From contig JARKSN010000247.1 in the NCBI GenBank assembly GCA_029974275.1, positions 1-16,536 on the forward strand: 16,536 nt of DNA, written 5' to 3'. Both the position numbers and the translations under genes were made by a program. Below, piece after piece: positions 1 through 8,547 of the stretch (positions are counted from its first letter, which is position 1; each line of letters opens with the position of its first letter). A model generated the notes under the pieces. That model did not search any database. It worked only from the letters and a program-made list of their open reading frames with translations, and was not told where the DNA came from. This stretch comes from Candidatus Hydrogenedentota bacterium. Its GTDB lineage: Bacteria > Hydrogenedentota > Hydrogenedentia > Hydrogenedentales > SLHB01.

Positions 1-103
1 TGCATAGATTCAGCAGCCCGCACAGCAACGCGCAGTAGACGAGCATCTCTATGAGGGTATAACCCGTGTTTCCGGGCGCCGCGCGATGTCCGTTCCTGTC
101 CAT
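1..103 (-). CDS. Prepilin/pseudopilin-like protein, N-terminal part only (runs off the left edge)
   Basis: Not in the ORF track. Manual translation from ATG at 103 gives MDRNGHRAAPGNTG|YTLIEMLVYCALLCGLLNLC, a class III signal (G|aromatic-x-x-x-E) followed by a hydrophobic stretch. The ATG overlaps the upstream stop (TGATG) and is preceded by GGAGG. Confidence 0.85.
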   Translation of the reverse strand, partial: MDRNGHRAAPGNTGYTLIEMLVYCALLCGLLNLC

Positions 104-636
104 CACGCACCTCCCCTGTCTGCGATGAGCGTTTGCAACGATTTCGCGATCCGGGGGCCCTTGGCGACTTTCCACGCGATATGCACGCACACTTCCTTGA
201 GGCCAGGCGTTCCATCGGGCGCCGGCTGAATCGTCAGTGACGGTTGAACATCGACCAAACGATCGAGGCCTTCCGGTGCGTGTATGAACGCCGCGTTTTG
301 CCGGTCCGACAATTCGCTGAATTTCATTGCGCGCAGGGCTTCGATTTCATTTTGCAATGCCGTAGTCACGGCCTGCGTTTCGATAAACACACGCGAACTC
401 GCAAGGGAGTGCTGCATCATCTGAATCGTGGCAAACACCCCGCTGGTCACGATGGCGATGGCTGCGATCATTTCGAGTAAAGAGAAGCCGGAAGAGGAGG
501 ATTTTAACGCAGAGGCGCAGAGGCGCGGAGAAAGAGGAGAAGGAAGGATTCTCTTGGCCGCAGATCGACACAGATGAACACAGATAAGAGTTTCTTTTTC
601 TCTGCGCCTCTGCGCCTCTGCGTTAAAAGTCTTCAT
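103..636 (-). CDS. Prepilin/pseudopilin-like protein (minor pilin type) with a 50-aa repeat-derived leader
   Basis: G|FSLLEMIAAIAIV prepilin cleavage/methylation motif at residues 50-51. GGAGG RBS lies about 8 nt upstream of ATG 636, which is 3 nt downstream of the ATPase stop. No other in-frame ATG/GTG/TTG occurs before the motif. Confidence 0.88.
   Translation of the reverse strand: MKTFNAEAQRRREKETLICVHLCRSAAKRILPSPLSPRLCASALKSSSSGFSLLEMIAAIAIVTSGVFATIQMMQHSLASSRVFIETQAVTTALQNEIEALRAMKFSELSDRQNAAFIHAPEGLDRLVDVQPSLTIQPAPDGTPGLKEVCVHIAWKVAKGPRIAKSLQTLIADRGGA
502..628. repeat. Palindromic element A: 32-bp inverted arms of 8-bp tandem units, enclosing a solo 10-bp-period arm
   Basis: 502-533 TTTTAACGCAGAGGCGCAGAGGCGCGGAGAAA and 597-628 TTTCTCTGCGCCTCTGCGCCTCTGCGTTAAAA are reverse complements at 31/32 positions. 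Internal 558-590 reads CCGCAGATCG-ACACAGATGA-ACACAGATAA-GAG. Confidence 0.95.
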
Positions 637-639
637 CTT

Positions 640-1908
640 CTATCCCTCCGCCGCCGGCAGCACGCGTTGCAGCTCCTCGACCGTTGTGATGCCGCGCGCG
701 GCGCAGTGGAGAGCGGCGCGTTCGAGCGGGACCATGCCCTGGCCCAACGCGACGTCGTGCACCGTGCGCGTGCGCGACCGCGCCAACACGAGTTCCGCCA
801 GTTCCTCGTTCACGCGCAACGCCTCGCCGACGGCCGTACGCCCGGTATAGCCGATGCCCTTGCACGTCTCGCAACCGACGGCCTCGTACCATTCGCCGTT
901 CATCTCGTGCGCTCCGTAACGCGCGCAGAGATCGTTCGGCGGCGTCACGCGGCGTCGGCATTCGGGGCACACGACGCGCACAAGCCGTTGCGCAAGCACG
1001 CCGGTCACCGACGAAGCCACAAGAAACGGTTCGATGCCCATGTCGAGCAGTCGCGTAAAGACGCCCGCCGCCGTTCCGCTGTGAATCGTGCTGATCACGA
1101 GGTGACCGGTGAGGCCCGCTTGAACCGCGAGCCGCGCGGTCTCCGCGTCGCGAATCTCACCCAGCATGATGACCTCCGGGTCTTGTCGAAGGATTGCGCG
1201 AAACGCCGCGTCGAAGGTGAAACCCGACCCCGGCGCGATCTGCGTTTGCGACACGCCCGGCAGTTTGCACTCAACGGGGTCTTCAATCGTCACGATGTGC
1301 GCCGCGCGTCCACGCACCCGCGCGATTTCCTGCAACAACGCGTAGATGGTCGTCGTCTTGCCGCTCGAACTTGGCCCGGTGAGAAGCAACGTGCCCTGCG
1401 GTCGCGCGACGATCTCGCGCAGGCGCGTCACAATGGCGGCATCAAAGCCCAACGCGTCGAGTGCCGGTATCTCGCCCCGCGCGCCCAGCACGCGCACCAC
1501 GACCTTCTCGCCATGCACCGTCGGAAACAACGACACGCGCATCGCCTGCCCGCACGGCGTCGCGTCGGCGTCGATGCGCCCGTCCTGCGGCACGTCGCGC
1601 TGATAAACTGTGATCTTCGCAAGGATCTTCGTGCGTGCGACAATCTTCGCGTGGTGTTGTCGCGGCAACCGCGCGACCTCGTGCAGCAGACCGTCCACAC
1701 GCCACCGCACCGACGTCGCGTCCGCCCACGGCTCGATGTGGATATCGCCGACACCGTGCCGCACGGCCGCCAGGAACAACGCATTCAACGCGTTAGCGAC
1801 ACCCACCTCACCGGTGTCGAGCTCGGCCAACACCTGCGCCTCGACCGCCGCGAATGGGCCGGGCGCGCTGTCGGGCCTGTCGTTATCTAGAATGCGTAAC
1901 GTAACCAC
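640..1908 (-). CDS. GspE/PilB-family secretion/pilus assembly ATPase (short form, about 422 aa)
   Basis: DIHIEP, PQDGR, Walker A GPSSSGKTT, TIEDPVE Asp box, LRQDPEVIMLGEIRD Walker B, TGHLVISTIH His box and a CPEC...CETC Zn motif. Start set at GTG 1908, downstream of an AGGAGG RBS. The ORF-track start (1941) lies inside repeat B. Confidence 0.95.
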   Translation of the reverse strand: MVTLRILDNDRPDSAPGPFAAVEAQVLAELDTGEVGVANALNALFLAAVRHGVGDIHIEPWADATSVRWRVDGLLHEVARLPRQHHAKIVARTKILAKITVYQRDVPQDGRIDADATPCGQAMRVSLFPTVHGEKVVVRVLGARGEIPALDALGFDAAIVTRLREIVARPQGTLLLTGPSSSGKTTTIYALLQEIARVRGRAAHIVTIEDPVECKLPGVSQTQIAPGSGFTFDAAFRAILRQDPEVIMLGEIRDAETARLAVQAGLTGHLVISTIHSGTAAGVFTRLLDMGIEPFLVASSVTGVLAQRLVRVVCPECRRRVTPPNDLCARYGAHEMNGEWYEAVGCETCKGIGYTGRTAVGEALRVNEELAELVLARSRTRTVHDVALGQGMVPLERAALHCAARGITTVEELQRVLPAAEG

Positions 1909-1931
1909 GGATACCTCCTGATGAAGAAAGA

Positions 1932-2113
1932 AATGAACCACAGATGCACACAGATGGGCACAGATAAGAGAAGAATTTTTCGACAGGATTTACAGGATTA
2001 ACAAGATTAAAGAAAGAGGGAGCGTTTCCCCACGTTCTTAATCTTGTCAATCCTGTCGAAAACTCTTCGCTTTTCTTCCATCTGTGTGTATCTGTGTTCA
2101 TCTGTGGTTCATT
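1932..2113. repeat. Palindromic element B: outer 10-bp-period inverted arms nesting inner 9-bp-period inverted arms
   Basis: Outer arms 1932-1965 AATGAACCACAGATGCACACAGATGGGCACAGAT and 2080-2113 ATCTGTGTGTATCTGTGTTCATCTGTGGTTCATT (30/34 complementary). Inner arms 1977-2010 TTTTCGACAGGATTTACAGGATTAACAAGATTAA and 2038-2062 TTAATCTTGTCAATCCTGTCGAAAA (right arm one 9-bp unit shorter). A small GGGA/TCCC hairpin sits in the loop. Confidence 0.95.
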
Positions 2114-2120
2114 CTCTTTT

Positions 2121-3734
2121 TTATAAACTATAAAACAGCGTGTCCGACAGTTGTGAGATCACGCCGAGCGTCGCCACTTCGACCCACATAACACCAAGTC
2201 CAATAATCACCACACACAACGGCAACAGGATATCGAGGAGTATCCGCGCGCGTTTGCTGCTCTGTTGCCGGTAATGGCGTGCGACGTGGCCAAGGCACGA
2301 CGGCAACATCCCGGAGCTCTCACCAACCGCCGCCATCGAACGGAACGACGGCAAGAACAAGCGTTCGCGACGCAACGCATCGGCCAAGGACGTTCCCTGT
2401 TCGACCTTTGCCTGTATCCGTGTTAGCGCGCGCGCATATCCGCGACTGACCGATGCCTGCGCAACATCGCCCAGCGCGACATCCAGCGTGACGCCGTTCG
2501 CGAGCAGCCGTTCCAGCAGCAGACCGATATGTGCGAGATTGTTGCGTCGATAAAAGCCGCCGACCGACAGAAAAAGCCTGCTGCTTAAGGCGCGCGGCGA
2601 CACGATGAAGCGGCGAGAGATGGCGAGGCGGCTAAGCACGTGCCAGAATGTGACGAAAACGCAAAGTACAATGAAGAGAAAGAGGTAGTACTGCTGATAT
2701 TGGGATAAATGGATTTGCCTTTCGTTGTTCATGGTAAACGTGGTGAAGCCGAACAGCTTGCTCACAAATCCGCTGTGCGCTCTAAACAGCACGCCGAAGT
2801 CCATGACCATAGCCTCATACATTGGAAAAATCCAACTGGTGATAAAACTTATGAGGGTCACCAGCGCTGTAACCAGGAAAATAACATACGCCATCTGATT
2901 GCGGCGCGTGGTGCGGAACGCGATGTCGTCGCTGAGGTATACGGCGAGGTCTTTCAGCACGGTTTCGAGCGTGCCGGAACGTTCTCCCACGGCCACGAGG
3001 TCGGTATAGTACGTAGGGAAGAAGCGTGGACGTGTGCGCAGGGCGTCATGCAACGATAGCCCCTGTCGCAGGTCTCGCGCGATCCCGGAAAGCGACGATG
3101 CCGTCAGACCGTTGGGTGCATCGACCACGGCGCGCTCCAACGTGTCCGGCAAAAACGAGTTGCAGCGAATCGCGGATGCGAGCAGTTCGGTAACGTCTGC
3201 CAGCTCGCGTAGCCGCTTGAGCTTGCGGAAGACGATTAACGCGCGGCTACGTGCGCGGTTGGGCAGCAGCAAGACCAGCCAGACAATCCCAAGCGCGATC
3301 ACCATCGACTGAAGGAACCAAACCAGCATGTCTTCCGCGGGTAACCGCTCTTCGGTCAGGATGAACGCCACGTCCAGCAACAAGAACACAAGAAACATCG
3401 CGCCGATAAGACGGATATAGAATGTGCGCTTGCGCCAGAACGGCGACGGGCCGGAGGAAGCAGTTTCGAGGCGTTTGATAGGTTCTTTGGGCGGCTCAAC
3501 GGAGCGTTGCGCTCGCAGCAAATTGAGCGTCATTTCCAACAGAAGCAAACCCAAACCCAATGTCACTAAGGCCGCAACAATATAGCCTGCGATGACATCG
3601 CGCTGGACAAGCCAATAGGTCAACGCGCCCATGAGCAAGAAAGTCGCAGCGACAAACGCCGACACCCAGCCCGTGCTGACGGTTCGCCGCGTTCCGTCTC
3701 TGTCGCGCTTGTCGCGAAAATCGTCCTGCTTCAT
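2121..3734 (-). CDS. GspF/PilC-family platform protein with an extra N-terminal multi-TM extension (about 537 aa)
   Basis: Two T2SS-F repeats (GLSLHDALR...FFPTYYTDLVAVGERSGTL and GTSLADALR...MAAVGESSGML) with intervening TM segments. The likely start is ATG 3734, 2 nt after the upstream paralogue's stop. The longer ORF start overlaps the upstream gene. Confidence 0.88.
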   Translation of the reverse strand: MKQDDFRDKRDRDGTRRTVSTGWVSAFVAATFLLMGALTYWLVQRDVIAGYIVAALVTLGLGLLLLEMTLNLLRAQRSVEPPKEPIKRLETASSGPSPFWRKRTFYIRLIGAMFLVFLLLDVAFILTEERLPAEDMLVWFLQSMVIALGIVWLVLLLPNRARSRALIVFRKLKRLRELADVTELLASAIRCNSFLPDTLERAVVDAPNGLTASSLSGIARDLRQGLSLHDALRTRPRFFPTYYTDLVAVGERSGTLETVLKDLAVYLSDDIAFRTTRRNQMAYVIFLVTALVTLISFITSWIFPMYEAMVMDFGVLFRAHSGFVSKLFGFTTFTMNNERQIHLSQYQQYYLFLFIVLCVFVTFWHVLSRLAISRRFIVSPRALSSRLFLSVGGFYRRNNLAHIGLLLERLLANGVTLDVALGDVAQASVSRGYARALTRIQAKVEQGTSLADALRRERLFLPSFRSMAAVGESSGMLPSCLGHVARHYRQQSSKRARILLDILLPLCVVIIGLGVMWVEVATLGVISQLSDTLFYSL

Positions 3735-3736
3735 CG

Positions 3737-4948
3737 CTAGAACATCCCCGTTAGCGAATTCCCGCCCAGGAAAGTGGGCAGATAGATCGAGACCGCGATC
3801 GCCCCGACGGTCACTGCGATCACGATCAACAATGCCGGTGCCAAGGCCGCGCCGGCAAAGCGGTCGTAGTTCGCCACCCGCCGGTCGTATCCTTCCGCGA
3901 GAAACAGTAGCGTGTCGGCCATATCGCCACGCTCCTCCGCCGAACTCAGCATCCAACAGAACGCGCGCTCGAAACAGCCCGTTTCCTGCAACGACTCGCC
4001 CACGGGGGCTCCAAGCTCAATATTCGAAATGGCCTTGGTCGCGCCCGCGCGTAAACGTCCATCGCCCGCAGCTTCGGCGGCGATATCCAGCGCGTCCAGA
4101 ATCGGCACATCGCTCGATGCGAGCATTCCGAGCGCCCGCGTGAAACGCGCCATCGCGACCGCGCGGTGCATCCGGCCAAGGACAGGAAGGCGCGCCTTGA
4201 TCCAGTCCAGCGCAGGGAGACTTCGAGGCCCCGTCATTCCCCAGCCGCTCAGCAACCCAGCCGTGATGACGAGACCAAAAACCGCCCCCGCAATGGGGAA
4301 AAACCGGAAAAGAGGCAGCGTTGTTCTACTCGTAAGCGACTCGCCTAGCGACAGAAGCAAGCCCTGTTGCGCGCGGTATTCTGGCAAAACTTTCCACATG
4401 AGCAGCAGCAGCACCCCCAGCGCCACCGCTGACACGATCGCCGGATACGCCAGGGCCATTTGCATGCGGTCGCGCAGGGTGGCCATGCGTTGCGAGTATT
4501 GGACGAGGGTCGCGAAGACGCCGGGGAGGTTGCCGGTGCGTTCACCGGCGCGGACCATGCTAATGTAGACGGGCGGGAAGCTCGACTCGTGGATCATCAG
4601 GGCTTCTTCGAGCGAACTGCCGTGGGTGATGTGCTCGTGCATGTCTTCGAGCACGGCGCGAAGCTTGCGGCTAGACACGTCGCGCGCAAGGGCGGCGATG
4701 CTGGGCGCAAGCGGCAAACCGCTGCGGGTGATCGCGAGCATCTGTTCGTTGAAAAGTTCGAGGTCTTCCCAGGTCAGGCGCTGTTTTTGCCGTACGTAGC
4801 CCAGCCGCGCGATGACCGGCTCGACCTTGCTGACTTGCAGCCCCTGTTCTTGCAGCATTTGGACCACGCGTTGCTGCGTGGATTCCTCGATCTCGCCCTT
4901 GATGACGCGCCCGCCCGCGTCCACGGCTCGGTAACGAAATAGTTGCAT
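3737..4948 (-). CDS. GspF/PilC-family platform protein (about 403 aa)
   Basis: Canonical N-terminus MQLFRYRAVDAGGRVIKGEIE, then FPPVYISMVRAGERTGNL, ALAYPAIV, ARFTRALG and a C-terminal SIYLP. RBS GGAGAAGGA precedes ATG 4948. Confidence 0.93.
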   Translation of the reverse strand: MQLFRYRAVDAGGRVIKGEIEESTQQRVVQMLQEQGLQVSKVEPVIARLGYVRQKQRLTWEDLELFNEQMLAITRSGLPLAPSIAALARDVSSRKLRAVLEDMHEHITHGSSLEEALMIHESSFPPVYISMVRAGERTGNLPGVFATLVQYSQRMATLRDRMQMALAYPAIVSAVALGVLLLLMWKVLPEYRAQQGLLLSLGESLTSRTTLPLFRFFPIAGAVFGLVITAGLLSGWGMTGPRSLPALDWIKARLPVLGRMHRAVAMARFTRALGMLASSDVPILDALDIAAEAAGDGRLRAGATKAISNIELGAPVGESLQETGCFERAFCWMLSSAEERGDMADTLLFLAEGYDRRVANYDRFAGAALAPALLIVIAVTVGAIAVSIYLPTFLGGNSLTGMF

Positions 4949-5246
4949 GTCCTTCTCCCGTGAAGCCGCCTGGAAACGCTTTTCGCATACATATGACCGT
5001 CCGGCGCCAAGGCGATCACGCGAAACGCATATTCCCGGTCGAGAGTGGGGGGGGCAGGCTTCTGTTGAGGCGGTCCGGGCGGTTTGCCGCAACGTGCTGC
5101 GTGTGTTTTCACGTTGGATGCATACGGCATGTTCCCGTTCCGTGCGTCTTGACGGGGATGCGAGTCGTCGCATTCACATTTCGATTCGTCCGAACTTCTC
5201 GTCCCATTTTTCGCGCCGGTTTTGCCGTCTCGTTCATTCCTTTGTC

Positions 5247-5417
5247 TTTGTAGCGCCCGGTCTCTGTGCCGGGCGCATGTTGGGGCAAACGACACGACGC
5301 CATCCCTATCGCTCTGGATCAGAGTGACCAGAATGTCCCATCCCTCAAACTGACTTGGCGCACGAATATCGACCCTTGCGCCCAGACGCGCCCGGCACGG
5401 AGACCGGGCGCTACAAA
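5247..5417. repeat. Inverted REP doublet (REPIN-like), GTAG family
   Basis: 5250-5276 GTAGCGCCCGGTCTCTGTGCCGGGCGC and the reverse complement of 5388-5414, GTAGCGCCCGGTCTCCGTGCCGGGCGC, are 26/27 identical. Each is GTAG plus an 8-bp-stem hairpin (GCGCCCGG/CCGGGCGC). The pair is flanked by TTT/AAA with a 111-bp spacer. Confidence 0.85.
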
Positions 5418-5512
5418 AAAGTCGCCGATGACCATTCTCATGCGCAAGTGTTCGGTTTTTGAACACGATCCGTCAACGGGGATCGTTTTCATGACGAAAG
5501 GACAGGCGAGAA

Positions 5513-5528
5513 TGATACAATGTGTATC
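5513..5528 (+). promoter_or_regulatory. Candidate extended -10 promoter (TGnTACAAT) with an overlapping palindrome GATACA-N3-TGTATC
   Basis: TGATACAAT at 5513-5521, about 40 bp upstream of the ATG at 5563. A perfect 6-3-6 inverted repeat spans 5514-5528. Confidence 0.5.
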
Positions 5529-5562
5529 GAGAATGATTGGGGCATCGAGAAGGAGAGTTTTC

Positions 5563-8547
5563 ATGGGCGATACGACGCCAAAAAGGCCGGCCAAGGACCA
5601 TCGTGTTTGTGTTCGGCGGCCCTTCCGGTTCGCGGCGGCGGTTTTTGCGGCGTTGCTGGCGGCCTTGCCGGCGGCGGCGCTGCTGGCGGGCGATGTGGAC
5701 GGGTCCAATACGGTGGACAGCTTGGATGTCCAGATCGCCATTAATGCAGCGTTGCGGCTTCCGGTGCCGACGACGTATTGGCCGGACGTGGATTATAGCG
5801 GCGCTGTCGATGCATTGGATGTGCAACTGGTGATCAATGCGGCGCTGCGGCTCCCGGTCGACATCGACGGCGATGGCATTTGCGACGCCGCCGACGTCAA
5901 TCTCTTCACGCATATCGATTCCTTCGCCATCAACGGCGGGGCCGCCACGGCCAATGATCGCTCCGTCTATCTCAACCACGTATGCATCGGCGCCCCCACC
6001 GACTACATGGCCAGCGAATCAGCGGATTTCGCCGGAGCGCAGTGGCGGCCGTATTCGACGGCGCCGTTGTTCGTGTTGTCGGAAGGAAACGGCGCCAAAA
6101 CCGTTCATTTCAAGGTAAGGCGCTTCGTGAAGGACTCGAACACGCTCAGCGATGCGATAGCGCTTTCCTATGCGCCCACGCCGCCCACGTTGCAGTCGTT
6201 CGCCATCAACAACGGCGCGCCCGCCGCCGCTGGGCGAACCATCATCCTGAACAACATTTGCGTGGGCGGGCCGGACGAATGCCTGGCCAGCGAATCCGCT
6301 TCGTTCGAAGGCGCGGCGTGGCAGCCGTATTCCAGCGCCCCGTCGTTTGCCCTCGCGACGCCTGGCAACGGCGTCAAGACGGTCTATTTCAAGACGCGCA
6401 ACGCCCTTGGCGAATCGGCGACGCTCTCCGACCAAATTTCGCTGAACGAGCCTGTGCCGCCGGTGGTGACCGCGTTTCACATCAACAACGGCGACGCGCA
6501 AACCGGGAACCGGATCGTGACGTTGCATAACGTTTGCCTCAACGCGCCCACGCAGTATATGGCGAGCGGCGCGCCAAGTTTTTCAGGCGCTTCCTGGCAG
6601 CCGTATGCCGCGGCGCCGGCGTTTGTCTTGCCGGCGGGCAACGGGACCAAGACGGTCTATTTCAAGACGCGCAATGCCTATGGCGAGTCGTCCGTCGCGC
6701 AGGACGCGATAGAGCTCAAAGAACTGCAACTCGAGTGGAGTCGGAGCGTATTCGATCTTTCGCGGCGCGACAGCCATGCCGCCGTCGCATTGGGAGACGC
6801 CGTATGGGTTTTGGGCGGCAAGGGCAACGACGGCGCAAAGCTCAACGACGTCTGGCGGTCCGAGGACGGCGCGACGTGGACGCTTGCCACCCCTGCCGCT
6901 CCGTGGGCCGCGCGCACAGGACATGCCGCCGTCGCGTTCCATGGGCGCATCTATGTCATCGGCGGTTTTTCGGCGGCGGGCGCGCAACGCGATGTTTGGT
7001 CATCGGACAACGGCGTCGAGTGGCGCATCGAAACCCTACAGGCGCCGTGGTCGGCGCGATCGGCGCATGCCGCCCTCGTCTACCAAAACAAACTGTGGGT
7101 GATCGGCGGTTTCGATGTCCAAGGAAATCGCGTCAACGACGTGTGGCACAGCGACGACGGCGTCACGTGGTTGCCGAAGACCGCCGCCGCCGCATGGACC
7201 GGACGCGATGGCATCACCGCCGCCACGACCGGCGAAGGCACGCCGGACGCGCGAATGTGGATTCTCGGCGGACGCACCGCGTCGGAATACCCCGTCAGCG
7301 AGGTCTGGTGGTCGGCGGATGGCTCCACGTGGACGCAAGCCGCCGCACCGGGCTGGGAAGCGCGGCACTCCCACGCGACCGTGGTCACGAGCGCCGGCGC
7401 GATGTGGGTGATCGGCGGCATTGGAGCGAACTACAAGTACTTGCGCGACGCCTGGCATTCGACCAACGGCGCGACGTGGACTCGGGCCACGGGCGTATCC
7501 GGCGCGCCGTGGTCGGGACGCGGAAAACACGCCGCGGCCGTGACGGCGGGCGACGTGCTGTGGGTCCTCGGCGGCGAAGACGTGAACGTCACGTCCCTGC
7601 GCGACGTCTGGCACTCAACCGATGGCAACGCCTGGGCCCTCGCCAATGTTGCGATGCAGTGGGACGCGCGCCAAGACCACGCCGCGGTTGTCTCCACAGG
7701 GGCGATCGGATCGTATTTGTGGGTCCTTGGCGGCCGTGACGACGCCGAGAACCGCCTGCGCGATGTCTGGCGCACCGGCGACGGCGCAACGTGGACAAGG
7801 ACGACGGCCTCGGCGGAATGGAGCGCGCGCGCAGGCCTTGCCGCTACTGCCGCCGCCGATGGCAAGCTGTGGGTGTTCGGCGGATCCACCGATGTCGCGC
7901 CGGCAGCCGTGACGAACGATGTCTGGCACTCGACCAATGGCGCAACGTGGCTGCGGCAGACTGCCGGAGCGGAATGGCCGGCGCGCGCATACCACGCCTC
8001 CGCGTCGTTTCTGGGCAAACTCTGGATCGCCGGCGGCATGAACAGCGCCGGCGCGCCGCTGAATGACGTGTGGACTTCCGATACGGGCGCCACATGGACG
8101 AACGCGGGGCCCGCGCCATGGCCGGCCCGATCGCGGCATAGCATGATCGTGTTTTTGGACAAACTCTGGGTCGTCGGCGGCATGGACGCGAATTGGACTC
8201 CGTTCAACGACGTCTGGCACACCCAAAACGGCACGTCGTGGACCAAGGCGAGCGGCGCGGGCGCCCCTTGGTCCGCGCGGGCGGCCGCCGCCATGGCCGT
8301 TTTCGATGGCAAACTGTGGCTGCTCGGAGGCGGACGCTACACGATCGCCACGGGGATCTGGGCGACGTACGCCGATGCGTGGCACTCGGCCGACGGCCAA
8401 ACGTGGGCCCTTGCATTGACGGGAGCCGCTTCGCCCGCCGGACGCTACGGCTGCGCCGCCGCCGCCTATGACGGCAGGCTTTGGCTCCTTGGCGGACTCA
8501 TTTCGGGCGCGCCTATCGATGTATGGCACGCCTCTCTTGCGCCGTGA
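5563..8547 (+). CDS. Secreted modular protein: signal peptide + dockerin-like domain + 3 Ig-like repeats + 12 Kelch/Asp-box repeats (about 994 aa)
   Basis: AGGAG RBS at 5551 and ATG at 5563. Basic then hydrophobic signal peptide. Paired GDVDGSNTVDSLDVQIAINAAL / PDVDYSGAVDALDVQLVINAAL dockerin-type Ca loops. Three ~95-aa FxINxG...W.PY...GNG.KTVxFK.R repeats (~5915-6720). Twelve R..H.A...lWV.GG...DVW.S.DG.TW repeats (~6760-8544). Confidence 0.9.
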   Translation: MGDTTPKRPAKDHRVCVRRPFRFAAAVFAALLAALPAAALLAGDVDGSNTVDSLDVQIAINAALRLPVPTTYWPDVDYSGAVDALDVQLVINAALRLPVDIDGDGICDAADVNLFTHIDSFAINGGAATANDRSVYLNHVCIGAPTDYMASESADFAGAQWRPYSTAPLFVLSEGNGAKTVHFKVRRFVKDSNTLSDAIALSYAPTPPTLQSFAINNGAPAAAGRTIILNNICVGGPDECLASESASFEGAAWQPYSSAPSFALATPGNGVKTVYFKTRNALGESATLSDQISLNEPVPPVVTAFHINNGDAQTGNRIVTLHNVCLNAPTQYMASGAPSFSGASWQPYAAAPAFVLPAGNGTKTVYFKTRNAYGESSVAQDAIELKELQLEWSRSVFDLSRRDSHAAVALGDAVWVLGGKGNDGAKLNDVWRSEDGATWTLATPAAPWAARTGHAAVAFHGRIYVIGGFSAAGAQRDVWSSDNGVEWRIETLQAPWSARSAHAALVYQNKLWVIGGFDVQGNRVNDVWHSDDGVTWLPKTAAAAWTGRDGITAATTGEGTPDARMWILGGRTASEYPVSEVWWSADGSTWTQAAAPGWEARHSHATVVTSAGAMWVIGGIGANYKYLRDAWHSTNGATWTRATGVSGAPWSGRGKHAAAVTAGDVLWVLGGEDVNVTSLRDVWHSTDGNAWALANVAMQWDARQDHAAVVSTGAIGSYLWVLGGRDDAENRLRDVWRTGDGATWTRTTASAEWSARAGLAATAAADGKLWVFGGSTDVAPAAVTNDVWHSTNGATWLRQTAGAEWPARAYHASASFLGKLWIAGGMNSAGAPLNDVWTSDTGATWTNAGPAPWPARSRHSMIVFLDKLWVVGGMDANWTPFNDVWHTQNGTSWTKASGAGAPWSARAAAAMAVFDGKLWLLGGGRYTIATGIWATYADAWHSADGQTWALALTGAASPAGRYGCAAAAYDGRLWLLGGLISGAPIDVWHASLAP

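What the first reader, a model, noticed from the sequence alone, without database searches (positions are those of the whole stretch)
1932..2113. Nested palindromes: three different tandem-unit inverted-repeat families sharing one architecture
Seen: element B has a 10-bp-period pair (CACAGATGNN x3) enclosing a 9-bp-period pair (ACAGGATTN x3 on the left, x2 on the right). Element A has an 8-bp-period pair (CGCAGAGG x3) enclosing a solo 10-bp-period arm. All arms have about three tandem units around a CAG(A/G) core. The spacers are purine-rich inside the left arm and pyrimidine-rich inside the right arm, and two of the pairs carry TTTT/AAAA outer ends. They are not GTAG REPs, CRISPR repeats or simple terminators. 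Inference: a family of non-autonomous mobile elements that insert into one another, with each period matching a different binding protein. From memory (unverified), the peptides these arms spell (NAEAQRRRE, LCASALK, ICVHLC, NPVNPV) resemble sequences flanking GxxExxY-family and four-helix-bundle genes, which would be candidate autonomous partners.
Basis: partly seen in the sequence, partly recalled or inferred. Interest (0 to 1): 0.85.

Follow-up and report, generated by a model that had tools for sequence, protein, structure and literature searches.

The report
Gene-less hairpins of nuclease-gene cassettes
The two nested palindromes are real, and they are gene-less copies of repeat arms that enclose a small, uncharacterised nuclease gene elsewhere in this genome and in many bacterial phyla, so they look like relics of a widespread selfish DNA cassette that I could not find described.

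Summary
Element B (1921-2124) is an inverted pair of 10-bp units around an inverted pair of 9-bp units. Element A (502-628) is an inverted pair of 8-bp units around a solo 10-bp-unit arm. All the unit families are multi-copy in this 4.4-Mb genome: 141 arms of 3 or more units, against 19 in a reversed-genome control.

The same arms bracket GxxExxY (PDDEXK_3) nuclease genes at 4 of 5 copies in this genome. Across phyla, 55 of 74 GxxExxY loci carry such inverted tandem-unit arms, against 6 of 74 in the control. Protein identity tracks the arm word even between phyla, so gene and arms travel together. Four-helix-bundle (23S-IVS-type) genes in relatives have the same build (21 of 28 loci, control 1 of 28).

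The orthologous gene junctions in other genera are short, so A and B look like insertions. A lies in frame inside the leader-peptide coding part of a pseudopilin gene.

Not shown: recent mobility, same-species empty sites, or what moves the elements. This scan has met the same class before on other DNA. I found no paper describing it. The closest published relatives are the ORF-bearing 23S rRNA intervening sequences (Coxiella: three tandem GACAGAT heptamers, cut by RNase III) and REPIN/RAYT systems.

The parts
1921..2124 (.). Element B, whole nested palindrome. It fills the gap between the T2SSF-like gene (stop 2121-2123) and the T2SSE ATPase gene (GTG start 1909, Shine-Dalgarno AGGAGG 1914-1919), both on the minus strand.
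   Evidence: (pair I1); genes
1936..1970 (+). Outer left arm of B: terminus AACC, then three 10-bp units of CACAGATGnn, then AAGAG ('T' family).
2075..2109 (-). Outer right arm of B: the inverted copy of the T arm, ending GGTT.
1977..2010 (+). Inner left arm of B: TTTTCG, then three 9-bp units of ACAGGATTn, the third being ACAAGATTA ('I' family).
   Evidence: pair I5
2035..2062 (-). Inner right arm of B: two inverted I units, then CGAAAA.
2011..2034 (.). Centre (loop) of B, with a small 5-bp G+C hairpin at 2017-2031.
502..628 (.). Element A, whole. It lies inside the ORF 103-636 (minus strand) as residues 5-44 of P0001, upstream of the prepilin G|FSLLE motif.
   Evidence: (pair I3)
504..536 (+). 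Left arm of A: TTAA, then three 8-bp units of CGCAGAGG, the third being CGCGGAGA ('Q' family).
594..626 (-). Right arm of A: three inverted Q units, then TTAA.
558..590 (+). Solo T-family arm inside A (2-3 units of 10 bp ending AAGAG), with no inverted partner of its own.
   Evidence: (D18, 85% identical to 1938-1970)
103..636 (-). Pseudopilin gene (N_methyl motif at residues 46-64). Its ATG at 636 lies 3 nt after the stop of the ATPase gene.
   Evidence: the junction geometry in relatives is
640..1909 (-). T2SSE-family secretion ATPase gene, flanked by A and B.
   Evidence: PF00437, E 8.7e-103; start read
2121..3400 (-). T2SSF-family gene upstream of B (the start is approximate).
   Evidence: PF00482

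Best explanation
A and B are gene-less, partly nested members of a family of palindromic cassettes. Each arm of such a cassette is about three tandem 8-10-bp 'words'. In its full form the cassette carries a small PD-(D/E)XK nuclease gene (GxxExxY, PF13366) between the arms.

Shown:
- The same word families (T = CACAGATGnn, Q = CGCAGAGG, K = CACAAAGG/CACGGAG) bracket GxxExxY genes in this genome. The I word (ACAGGATTn) does so in related genera.
- Gene and arms are inherited and horizontally transferred as one unit across phyla.
- The two arms are unit-by-unit inverted copies of each other.
- The orthologous junctions of this secretion operon in other genera lack the elements.

Inferred:
- A and B were inserted in this lineage. 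B went between two genes. A went in frame into the dispensable leader-peptide codons of the pseudopilin.
- They are non-autonomous. The words are the cis sites on which a cassette-encoded protein acts at the DNA level, in the manner of REPINs with their RAYT. This makes the nuclease the most likely mobilising or maintaining activity.
- The nested forms arise because the centre of a palindrome is the cargo position and tolerates further inserts.
For: - Arm families are multi-copy. There are 141 arms against 19 in the control and 92 clusters. The T double-unit pattern (ACAGAT, 4 nt, ACAGAT) hits 30 times at 17 places, and the I double-unit pattern hits 3 places.
- There are 5 GxxExxY genes in the genome. 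Four are enclosed by inverted tandem-unit arms: C141 by T, C22 and C163 by Q, C191 by K. The fifth sits at a contig end.
- C22 and C163 are homologous from arm to arm. C268:7150-7600 keeps an arm plus a decayed gene remnant, so there is a path from full to gene-less form.
- Across phyla, the inverted-repeat score is 20 or more at 55 of 74 GxxExxY loci, against 6 of 74 in the control. With relatives and own copies added, 87 of 106 loci score 19 or more.
- Protein identity against arm 5-mer similarity gives Spearman 0.36, with 0 of 2000 permutations as high. In cross-phylum pairs alone it is 0.38, with 0 of 1000. Arm similarity is 0.51 at 70% or more protein identity and 0.06 below 40%.
- At unit-specific spacer letters the two arms match at 0.78, against 0.19 when shifted by one period (29 loci).
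- The gene order F-E-G is kept in 13 of 19 relatives' loci. The estimated F-E gaps there are about 9-54 nt in 12 of 13, against 211 nt here. The E-G junctions there overlap or are a few nt long, as with the ATG at 636 here.
- The protein models confidently as a PD-(D/E)XK fold (pLDDT 93) with the D...E-x-K residues and the helix-1 Glu conserved. The nearest solved folds are Cas4, lambda-exonuclease-like nucleases and Hjc.
Against: - There is no sign of recent movement. No empty-site contig appeared in the 4 runs laid, and B is identical in three studies. The loops of copies with the same architecture are not alike.
- An unrelated four-helix-bundle protein sits in the same kind of arms. The arms may therefore be served by something other than the cargo protein.
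- The link between T-word abundance and a close relative of the T-arm protein across 41 genomes is weak. It is 5 of 9 genomes with 5 or more hits, against 7 of 32 others. One T-armed gene is only 40% identical.
- No I-family gene was found in this genome.
- Recurrent arm combinations that are not complementary, such as T> ... Q< and K ends of two different types, are not explained by simple nesting.
- No PD-(D/E)XK protein of this size is known, to my recollection, to act as a transposase on its own.
Confidence: 0.6

Rival explanations
1. These are IVS-like elements that work at the RNA level. The arms form a long double-stranded RNA stem in the operon transcript, and RNase III cuts it, as in the ORF-bearing intervening sequences of 23S rRNA. 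The small genes are passengers, and spread happens by some other route. This reading is not exclusive of the best explanation.
For: - The Coxiella IVS has a 28-bp terminal stem, a four-helix-bundle ORF, three tandem GACAGAT heptamers and RNase III cleavage at the first repeat (PMC4990558, passages read).
- Four-helix-bundle genes in relatives carry tandem-unit inverted arms at 21 of 28 loci.
- Elements sit mainly between co-directional genes, in 33 of 43 placeable clusters.
- The minus-strand (mRNA-sense) RNA of B folds at -94.9 kcal/mol.
Against: - Transition mismatches between arms show no bias to G-U on the sense strand: 199 against 175, p 0.23. Transversions are commoner, at 506 (88 loci).
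- A cut in A's stem would separate the pseudopilin start codon from its ORF.
Confidence: 0.2
2. The words are operator or binding arrays for the enclosed protein, serving autoregulation or DNA looping. They are not borders of a mobile unit, and the gene-less copies are decoys or relics.
For: - Word cores are kept better than spacers: 0.95 against 0.78, though this difference is partly an ascertainment effect.
- Arm word and protein co-vary.
Against: - There are dozens of gene-less copies far from any such gene.
- The arms are exact inverted copies unit by unit.
- Homology between copies ends at the arm ends.
Confidence: 0.1
3. These are host REP-like structural elements (mRNA stabilisers, terminators, or sites for host proteins) that arose independently. 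GxxExxY genes merely tend to land in them.
For: The position is intergenic and mostly within operons, and the hairpins are strong.
Against: - Proteins 80-86% identical carry the same arms in seven phyla.
- The genome has its own separate GTAG REP family with RAYT-like genes.
- No terminator-like tails sit at the arm ends: 2 terminator-like sites were found against 2.0 expected, neither at an arm end.
- Only 3 of 43 clusters lie between convergent genes, against 16% of gene pairs in the background.
Confidence: 0.07
4. Chance low-complexity sequence or an assembly artefact.
For: None.
Against: See the controls, the identical contigs from independent studies, and the z-scores of -7.8 to -11.7.
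Confidence: 0.01

Closest known systems
ORF-bearing intervening sequences (IVS) of 23S rRNA (Coxiella burnetii, Leptospira; PMC4990558, passages read)
   Same: A compact unit bounded by inverted repeats that form a long stem, with a small ORF in the loop. In Coxiella, about three tandem heptamers (GACAGAT, close to the T word here) lie next to the ORF and vary in number. Distribution is sporadic, which suggests transfer.
   Different: A and B lie in a protein-coding operon, not in rRNA helices 25/45. They carry no ORF. Their words go with a PD-(D/E)XK gene, not with S23p. RNase III processing is untested here, and the G-U asymmetry test gave no support.
REP/REPIN elements with RAYT transposases (PMC3116915 and PMC3337134, seen as listing and abstract only)
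   Same: Dozens of short palindromic extragenic copies per genome, together with a few genes flanked by the same repeats. It is a candidate non-autonomous/autonomous pair.
   Different: There is no GTAG head and no single imperfect palindrome; instead the arms are tandem words. The associated gene is a PD-(D/E)XK nuclease or a four-helix bundle, not a Y1 HUH transposase. The genes are multi-copy and horizontally transferred. This genome has a separate true REP/RAYT system.
MITEs (miniature inverted-repeat transposable elements)
   Same: Short, gene-less and multi-copy, with terminal inverted repeats shared with a longer gene-bearing form.
   Different: No recognised transposase is involved. 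No target-site duplication could be established. The whole element is a palindrome of tandem words.
Transposon ends with several tandem binding sites (Mu, Tn7; recalled, not checked here)
   Same: About three directly repeated protein-binding words in each end, with the ends inverted.
   Different: The words here are only 8-10 bp long and abut each other. The protein is about 130 aa and belongs to an unrelated fold.

Membership tests
Tandem-word palindromic cassettes with GxxExxY cargo (class met repeatedly in this scan, not found in print) | Two inverted arms, each of about 2-4 tandem units of 7-11 bp, with the purine-rich arm 5' on either strand | tested here: met
   the same build is seen at 55 of 74 GxxExxY loci
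Tandem-word palindromic cassettes with GxxExxY cargo (class met repeatedly in this scan, not found in print) | The same word flanks a GxxExxY gene | tested here: met
   T: C141. Q: C22 and C163. K: C191, all in this genome. I: only in relatives G015 and G003.
Tandem-word palindromic cassettes with GxxExxY cargo (class met repeatedly in this scan, not found in print) | Cargo gene present between the arms | tested here: not met
   A and B hold no GxxExxY or other ORF of their own. They are gene-less forms.
REP/REPIN-RAYT | A 20-40-nt imperfect palindrome with a conserved head (GTAG type) | tested here: not met
   The arms are tandem words without a GTAG head. The genome's GTAGCGCCCGG REPs (86 copies) are a different family.
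REP/REPIN-RAYT | The associated Y1 (HUH) transposase gene is flanked by the repeat | tested here: not met
   There are 4 PF01797 matches. C268:122362 and C195:3441 have GTAG REP heads within 600 nt, and C141:7201 has none. Tandem-word arms next to these genes were not looked for. The arms studied here flank PF13366 genes.
23S rRNA intervening sequence | Located in helix 25 or 45 of 23S rRNA | tested here: not met
   Both elements lie in a secretion-gene operon. Rfam gives no rRNA match in 300-2400.
23S rRNA intervening sequence | Terminal inverted repeats forming a stable stem | tested here: met
23S rRNA intervening sequence | Excision from the transcript by RNase III | not testable with these tools
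   No RNA run holds the stretch. The indirect G-U asymmetry test was negative.
MITE | Target-site duplication | tested here: inconclusive
   The outer TTAA/TTTT-AAAA letters are themselves palindromic, and no same-species empty site was found.
MITE | An autonomous partner with a transposase that shares the ends | tested here: inconclusive
   Gene-bearing forms share the arms, but transposase activity of GxxExxY is unproven. The fold is a generic PD-(D/E)XK nuclease.
Intrinsic terminator | G+C-rich hairpin followed by a T run | tested here: not met
   2 sites found against 2.0 expected, none at the arm ends.
CRISPR array | Direct repeats of 25-50 nt separated by unique spacers of similar size | tested here: not met
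   The units are 8-10 nt, abut each other and are in inverted pairs.
Any Rfam RNA family | Match at the gathering score | tested here: not met
   19 matches at E of 1 or less, all microRNA- or snoRNA-type hairpin models far below their gathering scores (best 47.9 against 211 bits).

The most novel reading that the evidence does not exclude
Two unrelated small proteins, the GxxExxY PD-(D/E)XK nuclease and the four-helix-bundle 'S23p/Avd-like' protein, each ride in one shared cassette design. In that design, inverted arms are built of about three tandem words specific to the protein clade. Together with their many gene-less hairpins, these cassettes form a cross-phylum class of prokaryotic mobile DNA that has no canonical transposase. 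This class would also be the source of the long-unexplained ORF-bearing intervening sequences of 23S rRNA. The words would be the recognition sites of the cassette's own protein, so one genome (as here, with T, Q, K and I words) would host several orthogonal protein-word systems that can nest in each other.
Probability: 0.3. Interest if true: 0.85.

Novelty: new variant of a known kind. Interest (0 to 1): 0.68.

Why it matters
GxxExxY (PF13366/TIGR04256) genes are present in 38 of the 41 related genomes searched, and four-helix-bundle (PF05635/TIGR02436) genes in 36 of 41. GxxExxY relatives were found in many phyla. Neither family has a known function.

Tying both to one repeat architecture gives each family its first candidate nucleic-acid target. 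It also explains a common kind of unexplained intergenic hairpin, and the odd 'hypothetical proteins' that such hairpins spell when translated. It further links both families to the 30-year-old puzzle of where rRNA intervening sequences come from.

The idea is directly testable with one purified 130-aa protein and its 30-bp arm. For annotation, it shows that such hairpins can sit inside operons and even in frame inside genes.

Tried and rejected
- Rfam gave only sub-threshold hairpin look-alikes.
- A sequence search of solved structures with the 5-protein profile found nothing related; the only row has E 0.88.
- Foldseek against the PDB gave no match at E of 0.001 or less, only generic PD-(D/E)XK nucleases.
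- No RNA holder was listed for the stretch, so expression could not be looked at.
- Laying four DNA runs gave no contig that joins across A or B. The 'joints' at 1964/1965 to 2079/2080 carry 35-37 other letters (written out for two of the four). I read them as other T-armed hairpins, not as empty sites.
- A TRF-based census and a strict periodicity census were too noisy or too strict. They were replaced by the generic-unit scan.
- The test of whether T-word abundance follows a close relative of the T-arm protein across 41 genomes was inconclusive.
- The sense-strand G-U asymmetry test was negative.
- The in-frame, stop-free state of A is not significant by itself. Of 282 frames in 47 elements, 112 are open, so about 13% is expected by chance.
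- The long E-G gaps in L019 and L022 were inspected. They are not clear palindromes of this kind.
- My gene calls for the context count come from a rough GC3-based caller of my own, not from a trained gene finder.
- Literature searches: 'GxxExxY' (3 papers hold the term), 'PDDEXK_3' (1), the family accessions (3 papers hold at least one), and IVS terms (12). Going by titles and abstract starts, and by the passages read in three of them, none describes these cassettes outside rRNA.

Full report
**1. The observation**

The window is one whole 16.5-kb contig (C70) of a 4.38-Mb, 342-contig genome with 60.5% G+C. The best named relatives of its M32 peptidase are two Candidatus Hydrogenedentes MAGs, at 65% and 62% identity. 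That assignment is an inference from names.

- Tandem Repeats Finder reports period 10 at 1939-1965 and 2079-2106, period 9 at 1983-2010, and period 8 at 508-530 and 600-622.
- The repeat finder reports the inverted pairs 1921-1972/2073-2124 (77%), 1977-2004/2035-2062 (89%) and 502-536/594-628 (94%). It also reports the solo arm 558-590, 85% identical to 1938-1970.
- The single strands fold far better than shuffles: B as DNA -59.4 kcal/mol, B as RNA -94.9 kcal/mol, and A as RNA -87.5 kcal/mol, with z from -7.8 to -11.7.
- Rfam has no family for them.
- There are no terminator-like tails at the arm ends.
- Contigs from two other studies carry B letter for letter.

**2. The families in the genome**

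Words repeated at a distance of 8 nt (CTCTGC/CGCAGA, ACAAAG) and of 10 nt (CACAGA/ACAGAT) stand out from a G+C-rich background. They are not in the top 25 at distances 7, 9 or 11-13.

I scanned for the generic unit RCRRAK spaced 7-12 nt.
- It finds 141 arms of 3 or more units, against 19 in the reversed genome.
- These arms group into 92 clusters, of which 52 have two or more arms.

I call the families as follows:
- T: CACAGATGnn, 10 bp
- Q: CGCAGAGG, 8 bp
- K: CACAAAGG/CACAGAGG/CACGGAG, 8 bp
- I: ACAGGATTn, 9 bp

Q and K differ only by transitions, and they often face each other in one hairpin.

Nested and composite forms are common. K>T>T<K< occurs once. K>T>Q<K< occurs about eight times, in both orientations. 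K>Q< occurs several times.

Placement relative to genes, from a rough gene caller of my own:
- Of the 52 multi-arm clusters, 33 lie between co-directional genes, 7 between divergent genes and 3 between convergent genes. Six fall in called ORFs and 3 are at contig ends.
- Background gene pairs are 2216 co-directional, 509 divergent and 533 convergent.
- The elements typically leave 15-40 nt on each side.

The genome also has an ordinary REP system:
- 86 copies of a GTAG-headed hairpin.
- One inverted doublet of it in the window, at 5247-5417.
- Four Y1-transposase matches, one of them flanked by REP doublets on both sides.

The tandem-word elements are therefore a separate thing.

**3. The link to genes**

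Between the T arms at C141:3863 and C141:4331 lies a 134-aa ORF. It matches TIGR04256 'GxxExxY' (E 1.5e-42) and PF13366 PDDEXK_3 (E 9.5e-42).

The genome has 5 such genes. Four are enclosed by inverted tandem-word arms, and the fifth is at a contig end:

| Copy | Arm family |
|---|---|
| C141 | T |
| C22 | Q |
| C163 | Q |
| C191 | K |

C22 and C163 are homologous from arm end to arm end. C268:7150-7600 keeps an arm and a decayed 3' remnant of the gene.

Wider sampling gives the same picture.
- A profile of the five proteins fetched 80 loci from many phyla and one archaeon.
- Of the 74 with both flanks, the best alignment of the upstream flank against the reverse complement of the downstream flank scores 20 or more in 55. 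The control, reversed but not complemented, does so in 6. The medians are 23 and 12.5.
- By eye, most of the best arms are about three tandem units of 8-10 bp.
- 38 of 41 related genomes have the family, with 1-41 matches each. Their copies carry K, Q, T and also I arms.

- TIGR02436 four-helix-bundle genes occur in 36 of 41 relatives.
- 21 of 28 loci with both flanks have tandem-unit inverted arms, against 1 of 28 in the control. Their words are 7-9 nt, G-rich and different from those above.
- This genome's only copy is a weak match (44 bits) and has no arms.

**4. Gene and arms belong together**

Over 87 loci, protein identity and arm 5-mer similarity correlate: Spearman 0.36, with 0 of 2000 permutations as high. 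The correlation is as strong among the 3155 cross-phylum pairs (0.38, 0 of 1000).

Arm similarity depends on protein identity and not on sharing a phylum. Kin share labels, so this shows co-inheritance and joint horizontal transfer. It does not by itself show recognition.

The two arms are true inverted copies unit by unit. At letters that differ between neighbouring units, the partner arm agrees at 0.78, against 0.19 when shifted by one period (29 loci, all 29 positive). The choice of alignment register inflates this somewhat.

**5. The site in the window**

On the minus strand the genes run as follows:
- T2SSF (3737-5173)
- T2SSF-like (2121 to about 3400)
- element B
- T2SSE ATPase (GTG 1909 to 640)
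- element A
- pseudopilin (to 103)

In 13 of 19 relatives' loci the order F-E-G is kept. There the estimated F-E gaps are about 9-54 nt in 12 of 13 loci and 98 nt in one. Here the gap is 211 nt, of which B takes 174-204 nt.

The E-G junctions in relatives overlap or are a few nt long, and the leader peptides are about 8-27 residues. Here the ATG at 636 lies 3 nt after the ATPase stop, behind a GGAGGG. The ORF from it reads through all of A before reaching the prepilin motif (N_methyl at residues 46-64).

A is therefore most simply a 120-nt in-frame insertion in the leader-coding part of the gene (residues 5-44 of P0001). Open frames are common in these elements (112 of 282), so this is tolerable luck, about 13%, and not proof of selection. 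These comparisons are between genera. No same-species empty allele was seen.

**6. How it may work**

The GxxExxY protein models confidently (pLDDT 93.1, pTM 0.86). It keeps the Glu of helix 1 and the D...E-x-K residues in at least 90% of the 70 sequences. Its nearest solved folds are Cas4, lambda-exonuclease-like enzymes, MGME1, AddAB nuclease domains and Hjc. All are weak matches, the best at E 1.5e-3.

I favour a DNA-level, REPIN/RAYT-like reading, in which the words are the cis sites of the cassette's own protein and the gene-less hairpins ride on it.

Four results count against this reading:
- An unrelated cargo protein sits in the same design.
- The genome-level link between T-word counts and the T-type protein is weak.
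- There is no sign of recent movement.
- The recurrent non-complementary combinations remain unexplained. These are T>...Q<, and K ends of type AAGATTCACC paired with ends of type TTAAC(A/G)CA (18 left and 13 right full K ends, self-paired only at the gene-bearing copy).

The RNA-level rival has a published precedent. The Coxiella 23S IVS has a 28-bp stem, a four-helix-bundle ORF, three tandem GACAGAT heptamers and RNase III cleavage at the first repeat (PMC4990558). However, mismatches between arms show no G-U bias on the sense strand: 199 against 175, p 0.23, with 506 transversions.

**7. Comparison and novelty**

Membership in REP/RAYT, 23S IVS, CRISPR, terminators and Rfam families fails on defining features; see the membership table.

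This scan has met the same class on other DNA many times. Searches listed sixteen notes in all, eight on each cargo family. I reached the gene link before looking those notes up, and I tested the main claims here.

In the held library I found no paper describing the class:
- 'GxxExxY': 3 papers hold the term.
- 'PDDEXK_3': 1 paper, which lists the family's function as unknown (PMC3424549).
- The family accessions: 3 papers hold at least one.

Subscription journals are not covered.

This window adds the following:
- Four word families coexist in one genome, three of them with resident genes.
- The forms are nested and asymmetric.
- The insertions sit inside a secretion operon, one of them in frame in a gene.
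- A classical REP/RAYT system sits alongside in the same genome.

Noticed in passing
window 5247-5417: An inverted doublet of a GTAG-headed G+C-rich hairpin (arms 42 nt, 88% complementary, 87 nt apart) lies between the divergent genes 3737-5173(-) and 5266-8547(+). The head GTAGCGCCCGG occurs 86 times in the genome. One of four Y1-transposase matches (C268:122362-122601) is flanked by such doublets on both sides. This is a classical REPIN/RAYT-type system next to the tandem-word elements.
   Followed up: partly
G000 C127:2909-3069, C141:8183-8346, C163:3131-3288, C288:6042-6252, C295:9118-9231, C334:17022-17125, and mirrored at C268:50394-50544 and C288:4739-4900: A recurrent composite K> T> Q< K<. 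Its inner T and Q arms are not complementary, and its loops differ between copies. The full K terminus (AAGATTCACC...) is paired with a different terminus type (TTAAC...) at the other end. Simple nesting does not explain this.
   Followed up: partly
G000 C193:10340-11171 (L005): A tandem array of 243-bp units, each a Q> arm, about 190 bp that include a GTAG REP hairpin, and a Q< arm. Elsewhere there are at least 5 'Q< Q>' sites where two outer ends face each other across GTTGAAGAATCTTAAC-like letters (C222, C334, C298, C257, C193:47600).
   Followed up: partly
G000 C309:1490-2150 (L029): Another 10-bp-unit inverted pair (ATTCGCGTCT-type on the left, its complement on the right), 630 bp apart. 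The left arm lies just upstream of a DNA-methylase-like ORF (my reading of its N-terminus; no family search was run), and the right arm lies inside that ORF. The same word flanks a GxxExxY gene in relative G007 (L121).
   Followed up: partly
L022:2600-2840 and L019:2620-2816 (relatives G006, G022): In these two relatives the same ATPase-pseudopilin junction is about 200 nt long. In L022 the extra DNA is read in frame as a long pseudopilin leader and holds repeated ACATCCCCCTAA-like words. L019 has GGAGATA tandem words like the arms of a four-helix-bundle cassette in G016 (L151). These may be independent insertions at the same spot.
   Followed up: partly
G000 C302:14285-14327: An 11-bp-period run of TTATCCACA-like words (DnaA-box-like), possibly at the replication origin.
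   Followed up: no
window 5266-8547: A 1093-aa protein with a dockerin domain and about ten Kelch repeats (147-165-nt DNA repeats at 6842-8418). This is an ordinary repeat protein.
   Followed up: no
window 2121-3956 and 3737-5173: Two adjacent T2SSF-family genes. The listed ORF of the first overlaps the second by about 220 nt, so its true start is probably further downstream, near 3400.
   Followed up: no
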